Shown here in pieces: positions 17,158 through 23,267 of a stretch of DNA of 32,000 nt. Source of the DNA: a virus; IMG/VR virus record IMGVR_UViG_3300027908_000022, positions 45,686 to 77,685 of that record. The stretch is one strand, 5' to 3'. Under the pieces are notes generated by a model that saw only the letters and a program-made list of their open reading frames with translations, ran no database searches and had not been told where the DNA came from. The translations under genes and the position numbers were made by a program. Position 1 is the stretch's first letter. The number at the start of each line of letters is the position of its first letter.

Positions 17158-17231
17158 CGCGCCTGGTCGGGTTCGAACCGACGGCCACCGGATTCTTCAG
17201 GCCCGGTGCTCTGCCGCTGAGCTACAGGCGC
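17158..17231 (-). tRNA. tRNA-Phe(GAA)-like with enlarged anticodon arm
   Basis: Acceptor GCGCCTG/CAGGCGC, D arm GCTC-AGCGGCA-GAGC, T arm GTCGG-TTCGAAC-CCGAC. The anticodon arm is CCGGG-CCTGAAGAA-TCCGG, a 9-nt loop. The alternative reading is a 7-nt loop CTGAAGA closed by a C-A mismatch. Confidence 0.6.
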
Positions 17232-17234
17232 GTT

Positions 17235-17316
17235 TGGCTCCGACCGCATGAATCGAACATGCTCCCTCCCTCCAGCGCAAGCGCCTTCGGGTGCTCTGCC
17301 AATGAGCTAGGTCGGA
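17235..17316 (-). ncRNA. tRNA-like gene with unfoldable anticodon region
   Basis: Canonical acceptor TCCGACC/GGTCGGA, D arm GCTC-ATTGGCA-GAGC, T arm GCATG-TTCGATT-CATGC and encoded CCA. The 29 nt between the D and T arms (CCCGAAGGCGCTTGCGCTGGAGGGAGGGA) give no 5-bp/7-nt anticodon hairpin. Confidence 0.5.
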
Positions 17317-17321
17317 AAATG

Positions 17322-17394
17322 AGCCCCGGGACCGAGTTGAACGGCCGACCTTCGGCTTATACGGGCCGATGCTCTGACGCTGAGCTACCGGGGC
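17322..17394 (-). tRNA. tRNA-like with 8-nt anticodon loop, identity unresolved
   Basis: Acceptor GCCCCGG/CCGGGGC, D arm GCTC-AGCGTCA-GAGC (no GG), perfect anticodon stem TCGGC/GCCGA enclosing CCGTATAA, T arm GGCCG-TTCAACT-CGGTC. Confidence 0.55.
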
Positions 17395-17403
17395 GCGGTC
17401 TCC

Positions 17404-17727
17404 TCAAGTGCGGTTCGGCACCTCCCTCAAGCAAGGCAGGCCGCCGAAATGCGGCTTGAGGAGCTTTCGCGGCCCGGGCGGGACGCCGATCGCCATGAGC
17501 TGGCCCGACCACGGCGGCGTGTCCTCGCGGATCTCGACGATCTCGAGCCCCCGCGCGCGGAGCCGCTCGGTTTGCGCGACGAGCGAGGCCTCGTCCGGCA
17601 CGCACAGGAGAGCCCCATGCGTGTCGGGCGACAGGTTGCCCGGCGACGACTCTCCCGCGGCGTGAAGCACGGCCAGCGCGAGAATGTTTCTGGGCAAATC
17701 ATCGCGCACCAAAATATAATGAGTCAG
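17404..17727 (-). CDS. PTH2-family peptidyl-tRNA hydrolase-like protein
   Basis: YILVRDDLPRNILALAVLHAAG...LLCVPDEASLVAQTERLRARGLEIVEIREDT...LMAIGVPPGPRKLLKPHFGGLPCL follows the archaeal/eukaryotic Pth2 pattern from N- to C-terminus. There is no ATG. Possible starts are CTG 17727 (CTGA overlap), TTG 17712 and GTG 17709. Confidence 0.6.
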   Translation of the reverse strand: MTHYILVRDDLPRNILALAVLHAAGESSPGNLSPDTHGALLCVPDEASLVAQTERLRARGLEIVEIREDTPPWSGQLMAIGVPPGPRKLLKPHFGGLPCLREVPNRT

Positions 17728-18341
17728 GACTTCAGTGGCGGCAAATCCGGAAGACTCGCGATGTATTCCAGCAATCCCTTGCTGCACCGGAACCATTCTC
17801 CGCGTGGCCGTATTCGGTCCGCAAGAAATCGATCGTGAATCTTGACTTCTTCGCCCCGCGTCCCGCCTGTCACCTTCAGCAGGGTGATTGCCTCGTGGTT
17901 GCCACACTGCAGGCCCTGCATTCTCGCTGCCATGCTCATTGTCGTGAAGCCGATTTTGATCGGCCCCGACGTTACCTGTATGAAATATATTTTTGGTCTC
18001 CCGTCCGCAGTGAACTCCGCCCGTCGCTGCCGATGCTTCGCGAGCCACTCCTCGCGATGCTGCTCCCGCCATTTCTTGGCGTCCCTGCGGCTCCTCTCGC
18101 GCTCTTTCGGCATCGCCCGGCGACCGCGCATGTATTCGGTCACCTTGGCCCGTCTGGCCTCCGGCGTCCGCTCCTCTGCTGGGAGGAGTTTCCTCCCCAA
18201 TGGCTTCCCCCCGTTTCTCTTGCGGGCCTGCTTGTACCAGCGGCAGTAATCGCGGTGCTTCTGAGCGTACTCCGGATCGGCCTTCCGGCGGTTCAGCTGA
18301 TACTGACGCTCGTACGAGCGCTTCTTCTCGAGGTCTCGCAT
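17724..18341 (-). CDS. T5orf172 / GIY-YIG-superfamily domain protein with basic N-terminal region
   Basis: The C-terminal part IYFIQVTSGPIKIGFTT...RMQGLQCGN...EVKIHDRFLADRIRPRGEWF matches the T5orf172 domain pattern. The N-terminal 110 aa are Arg/Lys-rich. Confidence 0.65.
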   Translation of the reverse strand: MRDLEKKRSYERQYQLNRRKADPEYAQKHRDYCRWYKQARKRNGGKPLGRKLLPAEERTPEARRAKVTEYMRGRRAMPKERERSRRDAKKWREQHREEWLAKHRQRRAEFTADGRPKIYFIQVTSGPIKIGFTTMSMAARMQGLQCGNHEAITLLKVTGGTRGEEVKIHDRFLADRIRPRGEWFRCSKGLLEYIASLPDLPPLKS

Positions 18342-18413
18342 CGACAGGTCCCAGCTCGGGCTGGGCGCGCCCCTCAGGCGCGGCGATGAAGTCGGCTCAG
18401 GTCCACGGAAGAC

Positions 18414-18442
18414 AGGATAGGACCACCCGCCGGGCCCGTCAA
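18414..18442 (-). promoter_or_regulatory. candidate sigma70-like promoter for the T5orf172-PTH2 unit
   Basis: On the - strand: TTGACG (18442-18437), a 17-nt spacer, TATCCT (18419-18414), about 70 nt upstream of ATG 18341. The -35 element sits in a small hairpin. Confidence 0.3.
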
Positions 18443-18458
18443 GGACGGGTCACTCACC

Positions 18459-18542
18459 TGGTACCCGGGGCGAGAATTGCACTCGCATGGCCGAAGCCGC
18501 GGCGGCCTGAACGCCGTGTGTCTGCTGTTCCACCACCCGGGC
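18459..18542 (-). tRNA. tRNA-Leu(CAG)
   Basis: Acceptor GCCCGGG/CCCGGGT, anticodon stem CGGCG/CGCCG, loop TTCAGGC, long variable arm (GGC-TTCG-GCC), T arm GCGAG-TGCAATT-CTCGC (G at position 55). D loop GAACAGCAGA lacks GG. CCA is encoded. Confidence 0.75.
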
Positions 18543-18548
18543 ATTTTG

Positions 18549-18631
18549 TGGGATCGGAGGGAGTTGCACCCTCATGGCCTTTCGGTCGCCAGCACCTCAA
18601 GCTGGTGTGTCTGCTGTTCCACCACGATCCC
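18549..18631 (-). tRNA. tRNA-Leu(GAG)
   Basis: Acceptor GGGATCG/CGATCCC, anticodon stem CCAGC/GCTGG, loop TTGAGGT, long variable arm, T arm GAGGG-TGCAACT-CCCTC. Same D arm as Leu(CAG). Confidence 0.75.
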
Positions 18632-18633
18632 GT

Positions 18634-22174: not shown

Positions 22175-22178
22175 GCAG

Positions 22179-22253
22179 CGTCCCGCGCGGGAGTCGAACC
22201 CGGCATTCCCACCTTGAGAGGGTGGTGTCCTTAGCCAGTTAGACGAGCGGGAC
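22179..22253 (-). tRNA. tRNA-Glu(CUC)
   Basis: Acceptor GTCCCGC/GCGGGAC, anticodon arm CCACC-CTCTCAA-GGTGG, T loop TTCGACT. Confidence 0.8.
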
Positions 22254-22257
22254 GAGG

Positions 22258-22326
22258 AGCCGGATGCGAGATTCGAACTCGCCTGCGCTGATTACGAAAC
22301 AGCGTTGGTCCCAGACACTACCCGGC
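22258..22326 (-). tRNA. tRNA-Thr(CGU)
   Basis: Acceptor GCCGGGT/ATCCGGC, anticodon arm GCTG(T)-TTCGTAA-(T)CAGC, T arm GCGAG-TTCGAAT-CTCGC. Confidence 0.75.
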
Positions 22327-22331
22327 ATTCG

Positions 22332-22403
22332 CGGCACCTGAAGGAATCGAACCTTCTTCCGTTGGTCTAACAGGCCACTGCTCGGCCACTGAGCTTAGGT
22401 GCC
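22332..22403 (-). tRNA. tRNA-Asn(GUU)
   Basis: Acceptor GGCACCT/AGGTGCC, D arm GCTC-AGTGGCC-GAGC, loop CTGTTAG in a weak stem (3 pairs plus C31-A39), T arm GAAGG-TTCGATT-CCTTC. Confidence 0.7.
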
Positions 22404-22486
22404 AAGTGCGCGGCGACCTACGAGTCTTCCCGCGCGTCGTACACGAACGGAGAGACTGCCCGAGCTCGCGCCCGCGTCACGTCCGG
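22404..22486 (-). ncRNA. unresolved 83-nt spacer, possibly a degenerate tRNA
   Basis: Ends GCGGGCG...CGCCGCGC pair imperfectly. Internal CGTT-CGTGTAC-GACG hairpin. No convincing T arm. Confidence 0.2.
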
Positions 22487-22981
22487 TCAGGTTGTCAAGG
22501 ATCGAAGCCGAGCGAATGGGTCGGCAGCGGTTCCGGTCGAGGGACTCGAACCCCCATGCGCAGCTTCAGAGACTGCTGTCCTTCCTTTGGACGAGACCGG
22601 AGTGTCTATCTTTGCGTCCGTTTTTTTATAGGCCCGCATGTACGCTGCGTTGGCAGCCCTGCATTCGTCACACCTGCACTTTTCGTACGTCGAGATACTG
22701 CCATGCCTACCGTCGCGCCTCTCGTGTCCTTTCTCCTCGATCGACTTCTTCTCGTGACATGCTTCGCACAACAGCTGACACTTCGATAATTCCAGGATAA
22801 GTGTGGCTTCAGAACCTTTGTCGAGTCGGTTGGAAATGTTGAACCGTTTGGTCGCTGGATCGACATGATCGAAGTGAAGTTTACCTTTGGTCGCTCCACA
22901 CTGAGCACAACGAGCACCGAGCATGAGCACATAACGCGCTCGCCGCTCGGCGTACTTTTTTGCGTCGTAAGATGCCGTCAT
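22487..22981 (-). CDS. HNH endonuclease
   Basis: ATG at 22981. CAQCGATKGKLHFDHVDP...LSKCQLLCEACHEKK (HNH) followed by HGSISTYEKCRCDECRAANAAYMRAY. The reading frame continues through tRNA-Gln(CUG) before its first stop at 22487. Confidence 0.8.
   Translation of the reverse strand: MTASYDAKKYAERRARYVLMLGARCAQCGATKGKLHFDHVDPATKRFNISNRLDKGSEATLILELSKCQLLCEACHEKKSIEEKGHERRDGRHGSISTYEKCRCDECRAANAAYMRAYKKTDAKIDTPVSSKGRTAVSEAAHGGSSPSTGTAADPFARLRSLTT
22531..22601 (-). tRNA. tRNA-Gln(CUG)
   Basis: Acceptor TCCGGTC/GACCGGA, anticodon arm GCAGT-CTCTGAA-GCTGC, T arm GGGGG-TTCGAGT-CCCTC. It lies inside the 3' end of the HNH ORF. Confidence 0.8.
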
Positions 22982-22989
22982 CTTTTTCG

Positions 22990-23062
22990 TGGGCCCGACG
23001 GGAGTTGCACCCGCATCGATCGGTGTAAGAGACCGTCATGTTGCTGTTGACACCACGAGCCC
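22990..23062 (-). tRNA. tRNA-Lys(CUU)
   Basis: Acceptor GGGCTCG/CGGGCCC, anticodon stem CGGT/ACCG, loop CTCTTAC, T arm GCGGG-TGCAACT-CCCGT (G at position 55). Confidence 0.75.
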
Positions 23063-23075
23063 GTGAAGGTTCTCG

Positions 23076-23146
23076 TGGGAGGCACCAGGCTCGAACTGGC
23101 CCCTGTCGGTGTAAAAGACCGCTGCACCCCTGGGTGCTAACCTCCC
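23076..23146 (-). tRNA. tRNA-Lys(UUU)
   Basis: Acceptor GGGAGGT/GCCTCCC, anticodon stem CGGT/ACCG, loop CTTTTAC, T arm GCCAG-TTCGAGC-CTGGT. Confidence 0.8.
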
Positions 23147-23186
23147 TCTCGCTGCTTTGGACCGGTGGATTTCATCACTGCCTCCG

Positions 23187-23267
23187 TGAGGTGTCGTGGA
23201 GTCGAACCACTCGCCATGGGCCACTGATTTACAGTCAGCTTCCGGGAACCGCCCGGTATCACACCCC
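23187..23267 (-). tRNA. tRNA-Tyr(GUA)
   Basis: Acceptor GGGGTGT/ACACCTC, anticodon arm GCTGA-CTGTAAA-TCAGT, 11-nt variable arm, T arm GTGG-TTCGACT-CCAC. Confidence 0.8.

What the first reader, a model, noticed from the sequence alone, without database searches (positions are those of the whole stretch)
17158..23267. Island of 41 tRNA genes covering all 20 amino acids, embedded in the baseplate operon
I could fold 41 cloverleaves by hand between the tape-measure-proximal tail genes (24157-25556) and the hub gene (15841-16737). All are on the - strand and mostly 1-15 nt apart. The anticodons are Tyr GUA; Lys UUU, CUU; Gln CUG, UUG; Asn GUU; Thr CGU, GGU, UGU; Glu CUC, UUC; Phe GAA (x2); Pro CGG, UGG, GGG; His GUG; Arg CCU, UCU, CCG, ACG; Asp GUC; Trp CCA; Ala GGC, CGC, UGC; Gly UCC, GCC; Cys GCA; CAU x2 (one with the initiator C1-A72 mismatch); Val CAC, GAC; Ile GAU; Ser GGA, UGA, CGA, GCU; Leu CAA, GAG, CAG. 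Identity marks are present where expected: G3-U70 in all three Ala, G-1 in His, C1-G72 in Pro, and long variable arms in Leu, Ser and Tyr. The set is rich in anticodons for G/C-ending codons, which are the codons the GC-rich phage genes themselves use. Classical codon-usage compensation is therefore an unlikely rationale. My inference is a self-sufficient replacement tRNA set that keeps translation going when host tRNAs are cleaved or depleted.
Basis: partly seen in the sequence, partly recalled or inferred. Interest (0 to 1): 0.85.

Follow-up and report, generated by a model that had tools for sequence, protein, structure and literature searches.

The report
Phage tRNA island in tail operon
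A soil phage carries a 7-kb block of 44 tRNA-type genes and four homing-endonuclease genes in the middle of its tail genes; the block can read about 99% of the phage's codons, and it is a large, well-preserved example of a known kind of phage tRNA array.

Summary
ARAGORN at default settings finds 28 of them. Rfam RF00005 reaches its gathering score for 17 loci. A covariance model built from 14 of the tRNAs and run unfiltered scores 40 loci at 18 bits or more, all inside the island; the best hit elsewhere in the window is 14 bits.

The block is a 7,012-nt insertion exactly between the Pam3_gp18-like plug gene and the small ORF before the hub. The closest relatives lack it and have no tRNAs there. 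The 39 distinct anticodons read 57 of 61 sense codons, which is 99.3% of 5,310 phage codons. Only 4 genes encode CCA.

A diverged copy of the island in another metagenome keeps the same tRNA order and anticodons at about 60% identity. That copy shares a 1,057-nt, near-identical tract around an HNH gene, which is a homing or co-conversion signature.

The tRNA-replacement reading is plausible and already published as a hypothesis. It is untested here because the host is unknown. Verdict: a new member of a known kind.

The last three tRNA-like genes have abnormal anticodon arms and recur, in the same order, in a second phage contig.

The parts
23187..23267 (-). tRNA-Tyr GUA (type II)
   Evidence: ARAGORN default; Rfam Sec-like 37.0 bits; R1 18.2 bits
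23076..23146 (-). tRNA-Lys UUU
   Evidence: ARAGORN; RF00005 35.2 bits; R1 52.6 (30)
22990..23062 (-). tRNA-Lys CUU
   Evidence: ARAGORN; RF00005 42.6 (2)
22606..22981 (-). HNH endonuclease ORF (125 aa), low GC3 (0.58)
   Evidence: phrog_4234 106 bits; Pfam HNH 21.9 bits; GC3 (45)
22531..22601 (-). tRNA-Gln CUG (U1-A72)
   Evidence: ARAGORN; RF00005 53 (2)
22332..22403 (-). tRNA-Asn GUU
   Evidence: ARAGORN; RF00005 50.2 (2)
22258..22326 (-). tRNA-Thr CGU
   Evidence: ARAGORN; R1 33.9 (30)
22179..22253 (-). tRNA-Glu CUC
   Evidence: ARAGORN; RF00005 43.5 (2)
22104..22174 (-). tRNA-Glu UUC (C33; T loop AUCGUUA)
   Evidence: ARAGORN; R1 27.4 (30); loops
21984..22056 (-). tRNA-Phe GAA (copy b)
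   Evidence: ARAGORN; in the R1 training set, 57.9 bits
21910..21982 (-). tRNA-Pro CGG (C1-G72)
   Evidence: ARAGORN; RF00005 51.4 (2)
21818..21889 (-). tRNA-Pro UGG
   Evidence: ARAGORN; R1 62.8 (30)
21732..21805 (-). tRNA-His GUG with encoded G-1 and CCA
   Evidence: ARAGORN; Sec-like 39.6 over 21732-21805 (3); R1 50.7 (30); tail
21656..21728 (-). tRNA-Arg CCU
   Evidence: ARAGORN -ps80 (8); R1 33.4 (30)
21575..21647 (-). tRNA-Asp GUC (C37)
   Evidence: ARAGORN; R1 40.5 (30); loop (76)
21503..21570 (-). tRNA-Trp CCA (T loop AGCAUUA)
   Evidence: ARAGORN -ps80 (8); R1 20.5 (30)
21326..21396 (-). tRNA-Ala GGC (G3-U70)
   Evidence: ARAGORN; RF00005 54.6 (2)
21251..21321 (-). tRNA-Ala CGC (G3-U70)
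   Evidence: ARAGORN; RF00005 55.2 (2)
21177..21246 (-). tRNA-Ala UGC (G3-U70)
   Evidence: ARAGORN; R1 37.6 (30)
21103..21172 (-). tRNA-Thr GGU (T loop AGCGUUA)
   Evidence: read from the sequence; R1 22.1 (30); not called by ARAGORN
20948..21018 (-). tRNA-Thr UGU (C33)
   Evidence: ARAGORN -ps80 (8); R1 43 (30)
20873..20943 (-). tRNA-Gly UCC (U73)
   Evidence: ARAGORN; RF00005 43.2 (2)
20800..20868 (-). tRNA-Gly GCC (U73)
   Evidence: ARAGORN; RF00005 32.5 (2)
20736..20792 (-). tRNA-sized element lacking a T arm, inside a 12-bp hairpin (fragment or other structured RNA)
   Evidence: R1 15 bits; fold z -2.85 (34)
20658..20727 (-). tRNA-Cys GCA (U73)
   Evidence: ARAGORN; R1 32.3 (30)
20517..20587 (-). 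tRNA-Arg UCU
   Evidence: ARAGORN -ps80 (8); R1 24.7 (30)
20442..20512 (-). tRNA-Arg CCG
   Evidence: ARAGORN; R1 27.2 (30)
20371..20440 (-). tRNA-Arg ACG
   Evidence: ARAGORN -ps80 (8); R1 27.2 (30)
20298..20369 (-). initiator-type tRNA CAU (C1xA72, A11-U24)
   Evidence: ARAGORN; RF00005 60.3 (2)
20230..20296 (-). second tRNA CAU (elongator Met or Ile2; small D arm)
   Evidence: ARAGORN -ps80 (8); R1 31.4 (30)
20161..20228 (-). tRNA-Val CAC (C33)
   Evidence: ARAGORN -ps80 (8); R1 32.4 (30)
   Evidence: ARAGORN -ps80 (8); R1 30.9 (30); alignment
20000..20071 (-). tRNA-Val GAC (C33)
   Evidence: RF00005 37.5 (2); R1 46.8 (30)
19917..19988 (-). tRNA-Ile GAU
   Evidence: ARAGORN; R1 35.6 (30)
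19343..19888 (-). HNH endonuclease ORF (181 aa); centre of a 1,057-nt tract (18864-19920) near-identical to the diverged island in L060
   Evidence: Pfam HNH_5 56 bits
19262..19334 (-). tRNA-Pro GGG (paralogue of Pro CGG, 78% over 94 nt)
   Evidence: ARAGORN; RF00005 50.3 (2); repeat D3 (60)
19173..19257 (-). tRNA-Ser GGA (type II, CCA encoded)
   Evidence: ARAGORN -ps80 (8); Sec-like 32.8 (3); alifold
19085..19168 (-). tRNA-Ser UGA
   Evidence: ARAGORN -ps80 (8); alifold with compensatory pairs
18998..19080 (-). tRNA-Ser CGA
   Evidence: ARAGORN -ps80 (8); alifold
18911..18993 (-). tRNA-Ser GCU
   Evidence: ARAGORN; Sec-like 32.3 (3)
18785..18910 (-). 126-nt spacer with a long hairpin
   Evidence: fold z -2.98 (34)
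18705..18784 (-). tRNA-Leu CAA (C33)
   Evidence: ARAGORN; RF00005 46.5 (2)
18634..18703 (-). tRNA-Gln UUG (C33, U1-A72)
   Evidence: ARAGORN -ps80 (8); R1 38.6 (30)
18549..18631 (-). tRNA-Leu GAG
   Evidence: ARAGORN; RF00005 46.8 (2)
18462..18542 (-). tRNA-Leu CAG (CCA encoded)
   Evidence: ARAGORN; R1 35.4 (30)
17724..18341 (-). MUG113/T5orf172-like ORF (205 aa; GIY-YIG-related, putative endonuclease)
   Evidence: Pfam MUG113 28.2 bits; phrog_17889 endonuclease
17404..17709 (-). 101-aa ORF, no family match
   Evidence: called gene; GC3 0.87; no hits
17322..17394 (-). tRNA-like gene with 8-nt anticodon loop CCGUAUAA; G1-C2-C3 and U73 (trio member 1)
   Evidence: ARAGORN '(gtat)'; RF00005 51.6 (2); MFE cloverleaf z -3.3; homologue in L020
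17238..17316 (-). tRNA-like gene whose anticodon arm is an extended stem capped by a CUUG tetraloop; U1-A72, G73, CCA encoded (trio member 2)
   Evidence: ARAGORN '(gc)'; R1 50.9; fold; homologue in L020 with a compensatory change
17158..17231 (-). tRNA-Phe GAA (copy a) with a C31xA39 mismatch or 9-nt loop, and G73 (trio member 3)
   Evidence: ARAGORN; RF00005 57.2 (2); loop (76); L020 counterpart
23283..23888 (-). Endonuclease VII-like (HNH-type) ORF, 201 aa, at the upstream edge of the insertion
   Evidence: Pfam Endonuclease_7 68 bits; phrog_2914 (10)
23898..23928 (-). terminator-like 12-bp hairpin with a T run, just upstream of the EndoVII ORF
17145..24156 (-). the whole 7,012-nt insertion between the plug-gene stop and the conserved CTACCTTTGA..CATG that precedes the small ORF
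   Evidence: blastn against L002/L003/L005 and boundary sequences
24157..24591 (-). flank: Pam3_gp18-like baseplate plug gene
   Evidence: Pfam 60.4 bits
15841..16737 (-). flank: baseplate hub (E217_gp41-like), preceded by small ORFs at 16872-17144 and 16744-16875
   Evidence: phrog_196 178 bits; Pfam

Best explanation
This is a genuine phage tRNA gene island. It is a 7.0-kb block inserted in the intergenic spacer between the baseplate plug gene (Pam3_gp18-like) and the small ORF plus hub gene of an E217/Pam3-type soil myovirus.

Contents: 41 bacterial-type tRNA genes with 39 distinct anticodons for all 20 amino acids, three further tRNA-like genes, and four endonuclease-type ORFs (EndoVII-like, two HNH, one MUG113/T5orf172-like).

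Shown:
- The genes keep the cloverleaf, the bacterial identity elements and the discriminator bases.
- Isoacceptors sit next to each other and are paralogues.
- The set reads 57 of 61 sense codons, which is 99.3% of the phage's own codons.
- A diverged copy of the island elsewhere keeps gene order and anticodons at about 60% identity, so the genes are under selection as tRNAs.
- An HNH gene with its neighbouring tRNAs has moved between two diverged islands.

Inferred:
- The array is transcribed in the same direction as the tail genes.
- RNase P and 3' trimming cut it into single tRNAs. Spacers of 1-6 nt that nearly always begin with C would leave C74.
- The host CCA-adding enzyme completes the 3' end, and host synthetases charge the tRNAs.
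- The benefit is to make translation of phage (mainly late, structural) proteins largely independent of the state of the host tRNA pool. That pool could fall through host shut-off and genome degradation, or through tRNA-cleaving defence nucleases.
- The homing endonucleases spread and reshuffle the block among co-infecting relatives.
For: - tRNA calls and scores.
- Stem pairing 96% with heavy covariation.
- Identity elements and discriminators follow bacterial rules (G73 Asn/Asp/Trp/Ser, U73 Gly/Cys, C73 His, A73 most others).
- Phage context.
- Insertion absent from relatives at 68-72% hub identity. tRNAs are rare in 34 related loci (340 kb).
- Codon coverage.
- Paralogy of isoacceptors.
- Same island in other samples: L059 is 100% identical. 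L060 has the same 10 tRNAs in the same order, a 1,057-nt near-identical core around the HNH gene, and flanks about 60% identical.
- Precedents: phage tRNAs counter tRNA-targeting defences (PMC10264068 read; PMC11555353 and PMC11464382 as abstracts). [quoted passage not shown]
- Comparable arrays: XacN1 with 56 tRNAs for 20 amino acids; DSS3_MAL1 with 27 or more tRNAs.
Against: - No expression, processing or charging data.
- A strong terminator-like hairpin sits at the upstream edge and no convincing promoter was found, so when and how the array is transcribed is unknown.
- Only 17 of 44 genes reach Rfam's tRNA threshold.
- Six tRNAs have C33 instead of U33, Asp has C37, three have A54...U58 T loops, and about a third lack U8. 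Some may therefore work poorly or not at all.
- The host is unknown, so neither depletion of host tRNAs nor differences from host tRNAs can be shown.
- No tRNA repair, CCA-adding or peptidyl-tRNA hydrolase genes were seen in the roughly 50 kb of this genome that I inspected.
Confidence: 0.55

Rival explanations
1. Translation-efficiency or host-range supplementation. The tRNAs raise the supply of adaptors for the codons the phage uses, or allow growth in hosts with a different tRNA pool. No tRNA loss or defence is involved.
For: The most used phage codons (GCG, GGC, GCC, ACG, CTC, GTC, ATC) all have dedicated tRNAs. The authors of XacN1 linked a full tRNA set to wide host range (PMC5852040). 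Codon compensation is the classical explanation (summarised in PMC10264068).
Against: The set also includes tRNAs for codons the phage almost never uses (AGA 1, TCT 4, AGG 7, TCA 8 of 5,310). It is close to a full complement rather than a selected subset. A 66% GC phage most likely infects a GC-rich host with similar usage, and relatives sit in Polyangiaceae and deltaproteobacterial MAGs (weak evidence). Closely related phages manage with no tRNAs.
Confidence: 0.3
2. Mostly selfish cargo. The block persists because its homing endonucleases drive it into related genomes. Many of its tRNAs are decaying and contribute little.
For: There are four endonuclease ORFs with heterogeneous GC3 (0.58-0.88), which indicates separate invasions. 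A co-conversion-like identical tract surrounds one HNH gene. Many tRNAs have low covariance scores and non-canonical positions. One fragment and several structured non-tRNA spacers are present.
Against: There is no redundancy apart from Phe GAA and CAU. Anticodons and order are kept at about 60% identity in L060. 96% of stem positions are paired with compensatory change, and identity elements are intact. This is not the pattern of neutral decay.
Confidence: 0.12
3. A bacterial chromosomal tRNA cluster, or an assembly chimera joining a bacterial tRNA region to phage DNA.
For: None beyond the large number of tRNAs and the bacterial identity rules.
Against: Both flanks are phage tail genes that are collinear with relatives, up to the exact insertion point. 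Two assemblers give the same junction from one run. The island DNA recurs in other samples. Scores are far lower than expected for chromosomal tRNAs. The only similarity to the phage collection is to single tRNA-sized stretches.
Confidence: 0.01

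Closest known systems
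tRNA gene clusters of T4/T6 and T5-like phages with resident homing endonucleases (SegB; T5 HNH enzymes)
   Same: Tightly packed tRNAs on the same strand, with homing-endonuclease ORFs between them. Most genes lack an encoded CCA and depend on host processing (T4 knowledge, from memory). Endonuclease-linked movement of tRNA segments is documented (PMC13096335). The near-identical tract in L060 fits this pattern.
   Different: This island has 41-44 genes, against 8 in T4 and about 23 in T5 (numbers from memory). Its endonucleases are HNH, EndoVII and MUG113 types, not SegB-type GIY-YIG. It lies inside the tail/baseplate gene block.
Large tRNA arrays of tRNA-rich phages: mycobacteriophage cluster C1 (about 33-36 tRNAs), Xanthomonas jumbo phage XacN1 (56 tRNAs, all 20 amino acids), roseophage DSS3_MAL1
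   Same: Near-complete isoacceptor sets in one region. Two adjacent Leu tRNAs are 72.7% identical to two adjacent tRNA-Leu of DSS3_MAL1. The proposed roles are the same.
   Different: Those genomes are 150-385 kb. DSS3_MAL1 also carries tmRNA, a nucleotidyltransferase and a peptidyl-tRNA hydrolase next to its array. Here the genome is about 66-100 kb (contigs of 66,530 and 100,685 bp), no such enzymes were seen, and the phage family is otherwise almost tRNA-free.
Single anti-defence phage tRNAs (T5 tRNA-Tyr against Retron-Eco7, T5 tRNA-Lys against PARIS, T6 tRNA-Tyr against Septu)
   Same: The island encodes Tyr GUA and Lys UUU/CUU as its first three genes. Several of its tRNAs have unusual anticodon loops. 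Anticodon-loop changes are the feature proposed to confer nuclease resistance.
   Different: No defence system, host tRNA or rescue phenotype is known here. A full 20-amino-acid set goes well beyond replacing one targeted tRNA.
E217 / Pam3 / PB1-type myovirus tail and baseplate module
   Same: The gene order is sheath (E217_gp31_N), tube, chaperone, tape measure, Dit-like, Pam3_gp18 plug, E217_gp41 hub, sheath initiator, wedge.
   Different: The related metagenomic contigs examined have plug and hub side by side with no tRNAs. Only this lineage, and the L060 lineage, carry the island.

Membership tests
Phage-encoded tRNA gene array | Many tRNA genes clustered on one strand with short spacers | tested here: met
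   44 tRNA-like genes in 6.1 kb, all on the - strand, with typical spacers of 1-13 nt
Phage-encoded tRNA gene array | Located in a phage genome, physically linked to phage genes | tested here: met
   Tail and baseplate genes on both sides; capsid and portal on the same contig; the junction is reproduced by a second assembler and in other samples
Phage-encoded tRNA gene array | Genes fold as cloverleaves supported by covariation and carry aminoacylation identity elements | tested here: met
   96% of stem cells paired with compensatory changes in all 21 pairs (alignment fitted to the model). G3-U70, G-1:C73, C1-G72 and the discriminator rules hold
Phage-encoded tRNA gene array | Genes score as tRNA with the curated covariance model (RF00005 at or above 29 bits) | tested here: inconclusive
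   17 of 44 reach the threshold. 4 more match only tRNA-Sec, below its cut-off. The rest are found only by ARAGORN and/or my own model. tRNAscan-SE was not available
Phage-encoded tRNA gene array | Mature, aminoacylated tRNAs produced during infection | not testable with these tools
   Needs tRNA-seq or northern blots on an infected host; the phage is uncultured
Anti-defence phage tRNA (T5 tRNA-Tyr/Lys type) | Phage copy of the isoacceptor that a host nuclease cleaves | tested here: inconclusive
   Tyr GUA, Lys UUU and every other isotype are present, but no cognate nuclease or host is known
Anti-defence phage tRNA (T5 tRNA-Tyr/Lys type) | Sequence differences from the host tRNA at the nuclease recognition or cleavage site | not testable with these tools
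   The host is unknown. C33 in six tRNAs and C37 in Asp depart from universal consensus, which is suggestive only
Anti-defence phage tRNA (T5 tRNA-Tyr/Lys type) | Rescue of infection in the presence of the defence system | not testable with these tools
   Experimental
Homing-endonuclease-associated tRNA region (SegB type) | Endonuclease ORF within 1 kb of tRNA genes | tested here: met
   Four ORFs lie 7-120 nt from tRNAs
Homing-endonuclease-associated tRNA region (SegB type) | The endonuclease is a SegB homologue (Seg-type GIY-YIG) | tested here: not met
   The island ORFs hit the HNH, Endonuclease_7 and MUG113 families. The GIY-YIG gene at 27958-29004 lies 4.7 kb away, between the tube and chaperone genes
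Homing-endonuclease-associated tRNA region (SegB type) | Evidence that the endonuclease gene moves together with flanking DNA | tested here: met
   A 1,057-nt tract (HNH + Pro + 4 Ser) has 1 mismatch between the window and L060, while both flanks are about 60% identical. Cleavage activity itself was not tested
Bacterial chromosomal tRNA operon | Flanked by cellular genes and near-identical to host tRNAs | tested here: not met
   The flanks are phage genes. tRNA-Glu and tRNA-Gln on a deltaproteobacterial MAG contig (L050) that carries a related hub gene are only 71% and 65% identical to the island's Glu CUC and Gln CUG. A full host comparison is not possible
+1 frameshift-suppressor tRNA (sufJ/sufB2 type), considered for 17322-17394 | Otherwise intact tRNA with an 8-nt anticodon loop | tested here: met
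   MFE cloverleaf with loop CCGUAUAA; RF00005 51.6 bits
+1 frameshift-suppressor tRNA (sufJ/sufB2 type), considered for 17322-17394 | The expanded loop is a conserved feature, and the tRNA decodes quadruplets | tested here: not met
   The only homologue found (L020 2295-2369) has a 7-nt loop, CGAAUAA. Decoding cannot be tested here

The most novel reading that the evidence does not exclude
The last three genes of the island (17158-17394) may be a conserved module of non-standard tRNA-like RNAs rather than ordinary adaptors.
- One has an 8-nt anticodon loop.
- One has no anticodon loop at all: an extended stem capped by a CUUG tetraloop, with an encoded CCA.
- One has a C31xA39 mismatch or 9-nt loop, and a discriminator that does not fit its anticodon.

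The same three types occur in the same order in a second phage contig (L020) whose hub is only 41% identical. There the acceptor and T stems covary, the anticodon-arm stem of member 1 is identical, and the tetraloop stem of member 2 shows a compensatory change.

They could act as decoys or sponges for tRNA-targeting nucleases, as substrates for some other tRNA-dependent enzyme, or as recoding tRNAs. Together with the C33 and C37 variants in the main array, this would make the island a counter-defence device and not only a supply of adaptors.
Probability: 0.2. Interest if true: 0.75.

Novelty: new member of a known kind. Interest (0 to 1): 0.5.

Why it matters
- It shows that a near-complete decoding set (57 of 61 codons) can be carried as one compact 7-kb cassette by a phage far smaller than a jumbo phage, in a family that normally has no tRNAs. 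The cassette sits in an intergenic spacer of the tail operon.
- Comparison with the diverged island in L060 gives natural evidence for two things. The tRNAs are under selection, because order and anticodons are kept at about 60% identity. A homing-endonuclease gene carries neighbouring tRNAs between islands.
- This fits recent work that treats phage tRNAs as counter-defence and homing endonucleases as their mobilisers.
- If the phage or its host (possibly Myxococcota) can be cultured, the closely related phages without tRNAs would be natural controls for testing what a full tRNA set does for a phage.
- The three abnormal tRNA-like genes are a separate lead.

Tried and rejected
- A MAFFT alignment of 22 tRNAs (A1) misaligned the 5' halves and was dropped. 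A 14-sequence alignment with a hand-set structure was used instead.
- Rfam in 'evalue' mode on a 1.6-kb sub-range recovered no more tRNAs than the 7.5-kb run. The misses are low scores, not filter losses.
- Megablast and blastn of the island against 50,697 phage records gave only single-tRNA-sized matches. The sheath protein has only about 30% identical relatives there.
- IMG/VR scans found no relative of the hub or of HNH-181. EndoVII relatives matched only at domain level and were not followed up.
- An exact-pattern scan for the anticodon arm of trio member 1 in IMG/VR gave nothing. blastn of the trio against phages matched only member 3, as a generic tRNA.
- The look-up of ORF 292-687 failed, because no gene with that exact product is on record.
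- The promoter scan was not above chance: 3 sites against 1.4 expected.
- NCBIfam added nothing about the island ORFs beyond HNH-domain similarity.
- A chromosomal tRNA cluster or chimera was considered and rejected; see the rival explanations.
- I considered that the sub-threshold tRNAs are ARAGORN false positives. I rejected this for three reasons. They tile the gaps exactly. Their anticodons do not duplicate any already called. They score 20-47 bits with a model they were not used to build, against a 14-bit noise ceiling.

Full report

Yes. ARAGORN at default settings finds 30 tRNA genes, all on the - strand between 17157 and 23265. The other two have abnormal anticodon loops.

Rfam's tRNA model reaches its gathering score at 16 loci with fast filters and 17 with laxer ones. 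Four type II or 8-bp-acceptor tRNAs (Tyr, His, Ser GGA, Ser GCU) match the related tRNA-Sec model at 32-40 bits, below its cut-off. A second lax run on a 1.6-kb piece added nothing, so the misses reflect low scores rather than filtering.

I found the last one, Thr GGU at 21103-21172, by reading the sequence.

To score everything on one scale I aligned 14 clear tRNAs, imposed the cloverleaf by hand, and built a covariance model, R1. I searched the whole window on both strands without filters.
- 40 loci score at least 18 bits. All are on the - strand inside 17158-23267, and 26 of them were not used to build the model.
- The best hit anywhere else in 64 kb of searched sequence is 14.1 bits.
- The four Ser genes fit a type I model poorly (8-17 bits). 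Aligned together they fold into one type II cloverleaf, with compensatory changes in 15 of 29 pairs.

Over 43 aligned loci, 96% of stem cells are standard pairs (99% in the acceptor stem), against 40-45% when the 3' partners are slid. That alignment was fitted to the model, so the figure leans towards the structure.

- G3-U70 in the three Ala tRNAs.
- An encoded G-1 opposite C73 in His.
- C1-G72 with A73 in the three Pro tRNAs.
- C1xA72 and A11-U24 in one CAU tRNA.
- Long variable arms in Leu, Ser and Tyr.

Discriminator bases follow bacterial rules throughout: U73 in Gly and Cys, G73 in Asn, Asp, Trp and Ser, C73 in His.

**2.

The span holds three more tRNA-like genes and one fragment:
- 20078-20158, anticodon UAU, perfect acceptor stem, weak anticodon stem, R1 30.9 bits.
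- 17322-17394, a textbook cloverleaf with an 8-nt anticodon loop, RF00005 51.6 bits.
- 17238-17316, a cloverleaf whose anticodon arm is an extended stem ending in a CUUG tetraloop, with CCA encoded.
- 20736-20792, a tRNA-sized fragment without a T arm.

The array is also not continuous. It contains an HNH gene at 22606-22981 (phrog_4234, 106 bits) and a second HNH gene at 19343-19888. Further in are a MUG113/T5orf172-like ORF at 17724-18341 and a 101-aa ORF at 17404-17709. An endonuclease VII-like ORF at 23283-23888 precedes the array.

Many of the tRNAs depart from near-universal features, which explains the low Rfam scores:
- C33 instead of U33 in six tRNAs (Glu UUC, Thr UGU, Val CAC, Val GAC, Gln UUG, Leu CAA).
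- C37 in Asp.
- T loops reading A54...U58 in Glu UUC, Thr GGU and Trp.
- No U8 in about a third.

**3. Context**

The - strand from about 31.9 kb down to 7.6 kb is a contractile-tail module. In order it encodes:
- sheath (29537-31414);
- tube (29067-29525);
- a GIY-YIG homing endonuclease (27958-29004);
- tail chaperone;
- tape measure (25553-27175);
- Dit-like protein (24588-25556);
- Pam3_gp18-like plug (24157-24591);
- the island;
- two small ORFs;
- E217_gp41-like hub (15841-16737);
- sheath initiator and wedge.

Capsid and portal-type genes lie further along the same contig. The sequence comes from a soil metagenome (ENA ERZ923594, contig of 66,530 bp). Identical proteins also occur on a 100,685-bp contig from another sample.

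No GenBank phage is close. The sheath is about 30% identical to Pakpunavirus-type sheaths.

**4. The island is an insertion**

I fetched the loci around the closest hub homologues (68-72% identity). The order there is Dit-like, plug, small ORF, hub, with 26-160 nt between the plug gene and the small ORF and no tRNA within 10 kb on either side.

Nucleotide homology to L002 runs up to the plug stop codon and resumes at the small ORF. The motif CTACCTT(T/C)G, which precedes the small ORF's ATG in L002 and L005, follows directly after the last tRNA in the window. So 7,012 nt (17145-24156) occupy a spacer that is 31 nt long in L002.

Across 34 related loci (340 kb), only three carry any tRNA-like gene. 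A terminator-like 12-bp hairpin with a T run lies at the upstream edge (23898-23928).

**5. The island is real, shared and mobile**

- A second assembler gives the same plug-EndoVII-tRNA junction from the same run (L008).
- The HNH-181 protein is on six contigs. L059, from a different JGI sample, is 100% identical to 2,098 nt of the island.
- L060, from a third sample, carries the same ten tRNAs in the same order around the same HNH gene: Ile GAU, HNH, Pro GGG, Ser GGA, Ser UGA, Ser CGA, Ser GCU, Leu CAA, Gln UUG, Leu GAG, Leu CAG.
- Only a 1,057-nt core of L060 (window 18864-19920: HNH, Pro and the four Ser) is identical, with one mismatch. The flanks are about 60% identical (274/455 on one side; Ile 52/87 on the other).

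Two conclusions follow. First, isotype, anticodon and order are kept while 40% of the bases changed, and ARAGORN still calls the diverged copies at default settings. The genes are therefore under selection as tRNAs. Second, a recent exchange tract centred on a homing-endonuclease gene is what co-conversion during homing produces.

The endonuclease ORFs differ widely in GC3 (0.58 to 0.88, against 0.86 for phage genes). This points to separate acquisitions. Within the array, isoacceptors are neighbours and paralogues: Pro GGG and Pro CGG are 78% identical over 94 nt, Leu CAG and Leu CAA are 74% identical, and the Ser series is similar. The set therefore also grew by local duplication.

**6. What the set can do**

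With standard wobble rules, the 39 distinct anticodons read 57 of 61 sense codons. That is 99.3% of 5,310 codons in 18 phage genes. The unread codons are AUA, CUA, UUA and GUA, 38 occurrences in all. AUA might be read by the UAU candidate, or by the second CAU tRNA if it is lysidine-modified.

The set includes tRNAs for codons the phage hardly uses (AGA once, TCT four times). It looks like a full complement typical of a GC-rich bacterium, not a selection of scarce adaptors.

Only four genes encode CCA. Nearly every other gene is followed by C, often as CTAC or CTAT, and spacers of one nucleotide are common. From what is known of T4 tRNA precursors (my own knowledge, not tested here), I infer the following: RNase P cleavage of the downstream neighbour, limited 3' trimming, and completion by the host CCA-adding enzyme. 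Charging must be done by host synthetases, which fits the bacterial identity elements.

**7. Function**

This is the hypothesis of van den Berg et al. (PMC10264068). It has experimental support for single tRNAs in T5 and T6 (abstracts of PMC11555353, PMC11464382 and PMC13096335).

Here it is consistent with three observations:
- the completeness of the set;
- the non-consensus anticodon loops;
- a candidate Acb2/Tad1-type sponge elsewhere in the window, which suggests investment in counter-defence.

None of this is a test. The host is unknown; the only hint is that hub relatives occur in Polyangiaceae and deltaproteobacterial MAGs. No tRNA repair genes were seen, and expression timing is unknown.

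My commitments:
- It is a functional phage tRNA island: about 0.95.
- Its main benefit is independence from the host tRNA pool, with host shut-off and tRNA-cleaving defence not separable here: about 0.55.
- Plain supplementation or host-range benefit: about 0.3.
- Mostly selfish cargo: about 0.1.

**8. Comparison with known systems**

It works like the tRNA regions of T4/T6 and T5, and like the large arrays of C1 mycobacteriophages, XacN1 and DSS3_MAL1. Two adjacent Leu genes are even 72.7% identical to two adjacent tRNA-Leu of DSS3_MAL1.

It differs in three ways: its size relative to the genome, its place inside the tail/baseplate block of an otherwise tRNA-poor family, and its endonuclease types (HNH, EndoVII, MUG113, not SegB). 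I therefore file it as a new member of a known kind.

**9. The odd trio**

The three genes at 17158-17394 have counterparts in L020, a 2.9-kb contig whose hub is 41% identical. They occur in the same order and on the hub strand, but at a different intergenic site.
- Member 1 shares its D arm, anticodon stem (UCGGC/GCCGA) and variable loop with its counterpart, while the acceptor and T stems covary. The loops differ: CCGUAUAA here and CGAAUAA in L020. Neither has U33 in the usual place.
- Member 2 has the extended arm with the same CUUG tetraloop in both contigs, on stems GGCG/CGCU and GGUG/CAUC, which is a compensatory change.
- Member 3 has the C31xA39 mismatch (or 9-nt loop) and G73 in both, but the anticodon is GAA here and GUU in L020.

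A module kept across that distance is unlikely to be debris. Its role is unknown. No counterpart was found in GenBank phages or IMG/VR.

**10. Verdict**

Its interpretation is a reasonable but untested application of a published hypothesis. Interest is moderate. It comes mainly from the comparative evidence for selection and endonuclease-linked exchange, and from the trio.

Noticed in passing
window 17158-17394 (-); L020 2295-2565: Three tRNA-like genes with abnormal anticodon arms: an 8-nt loop, an extended stem with a CUUG tetraloop plus CCA, and a C31xA39 mismatch or 9-nt loop with G73. They recur in the same order in a second phage contig (hub 41% identical), with covarying stems. Function unknown.
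   Followed up: partly
window 22104-22174, 20948-21018, 20161-20228, 20000-20071, 18705-18784, 18634-18703; 21575-21647: Six tRNAs have C33 in place of the near-universal U33 (Glu UUC, Thr UGU, Val CAC, Val GAC, Leu CAA, Gln UUG). tRNA-Asp has a pyrimidine (C) at position 37.
   Followed up: partly
window 22104-22174, 21103-21172, 21503-21570: Glu UUC, Thr GGU and Trp have T loops AUCGUUA, AGCGUUA and AGCAUUA. This is A54...U58 in place of T54...A58, and two of them have G55.
   Followed up: no
L060 110-1166 = window 18864-19920: A 1,057-nt tract (HNH gene, Pro GGG, four Ser tRNAs) has 1 mismatch against a diverged island whose flanks are only about 60% identical. This is a mosaic of the kind left by homing or co-conversion.
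   Followed up: yes
window 2868-3080 (+): A 70-aa ORF matches Pfam Acb2_Tad1_hairpin (42.7 bits, cut-off 27). It is a candidate cyclic-nucleotide sponge against CBASS or Thoeris, and it lies directly after a RecE-like exonuclease (710-1702) and a RecT-like protein (1699-2871).
   Followed up: partly
window 27958-29004 (-); L007 3331-4290: A GIY-YIG homing-endonuclease gene sits between the tail tube and chaperone genes, and another follows the major capsid gene outside the window. The relatives L003 and L005 lack the first. L002 has a GIY-YIG gene of its own upstream of its tail genes.
   Followed up: partly
window 23898-23928 (-): A strong terminator-like hairpin (12 bp, T run) lies at the upstream edge of the insertion, immediately before the EndoVII start codon. 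Transcription of the island and of the downstream baseplate genes is therefore unclear.
   Followed up: no
window 18785-18910, 20588-20657, 20728-20799 (-): Three spacers inside the array fold into stable hairpin-type structures (z about -2.8 to -3.0). Two are tRNA-sized and are closed by 10-12-bp stems. They could be decayed tRNAs, processing signals or small RNAs.
   Followed up: partly
3' side of nearly all tRNAs, 17158-23267: The base after the discriminator is C in all but two genes, and is often followed by TAC or TAT. Several neighbours are separated by that single C. Only His, Ser GGA, Leu CAG and trio member 2 encode the full CCA.
   Followed up: partly
window 22606-22981 (-): This HNH ORF was not called by the metagenome gene caller. 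It has much lower GC (0.52) and GC3 (0.58) than the phage (GC3 0.86), so it is probably a recent arrival from a lower-GC source.
   Followed up: partly
L049, L050 (genome contigs): Hub relatives lie on MAG contigs labelled Polyangiaceae and 'uncultured delta proteobacterium' (the latter 302 kb). This is a weak hint that the phage family infects Myxococcota.
   Followed up: no
L011 14120-14202 and L049 14307-14389: A related phage carries a single tRNA-Leu UAG about 5 kb downstream of its hub. This is one of the few anticodons the island lacks.
   Followed up: no
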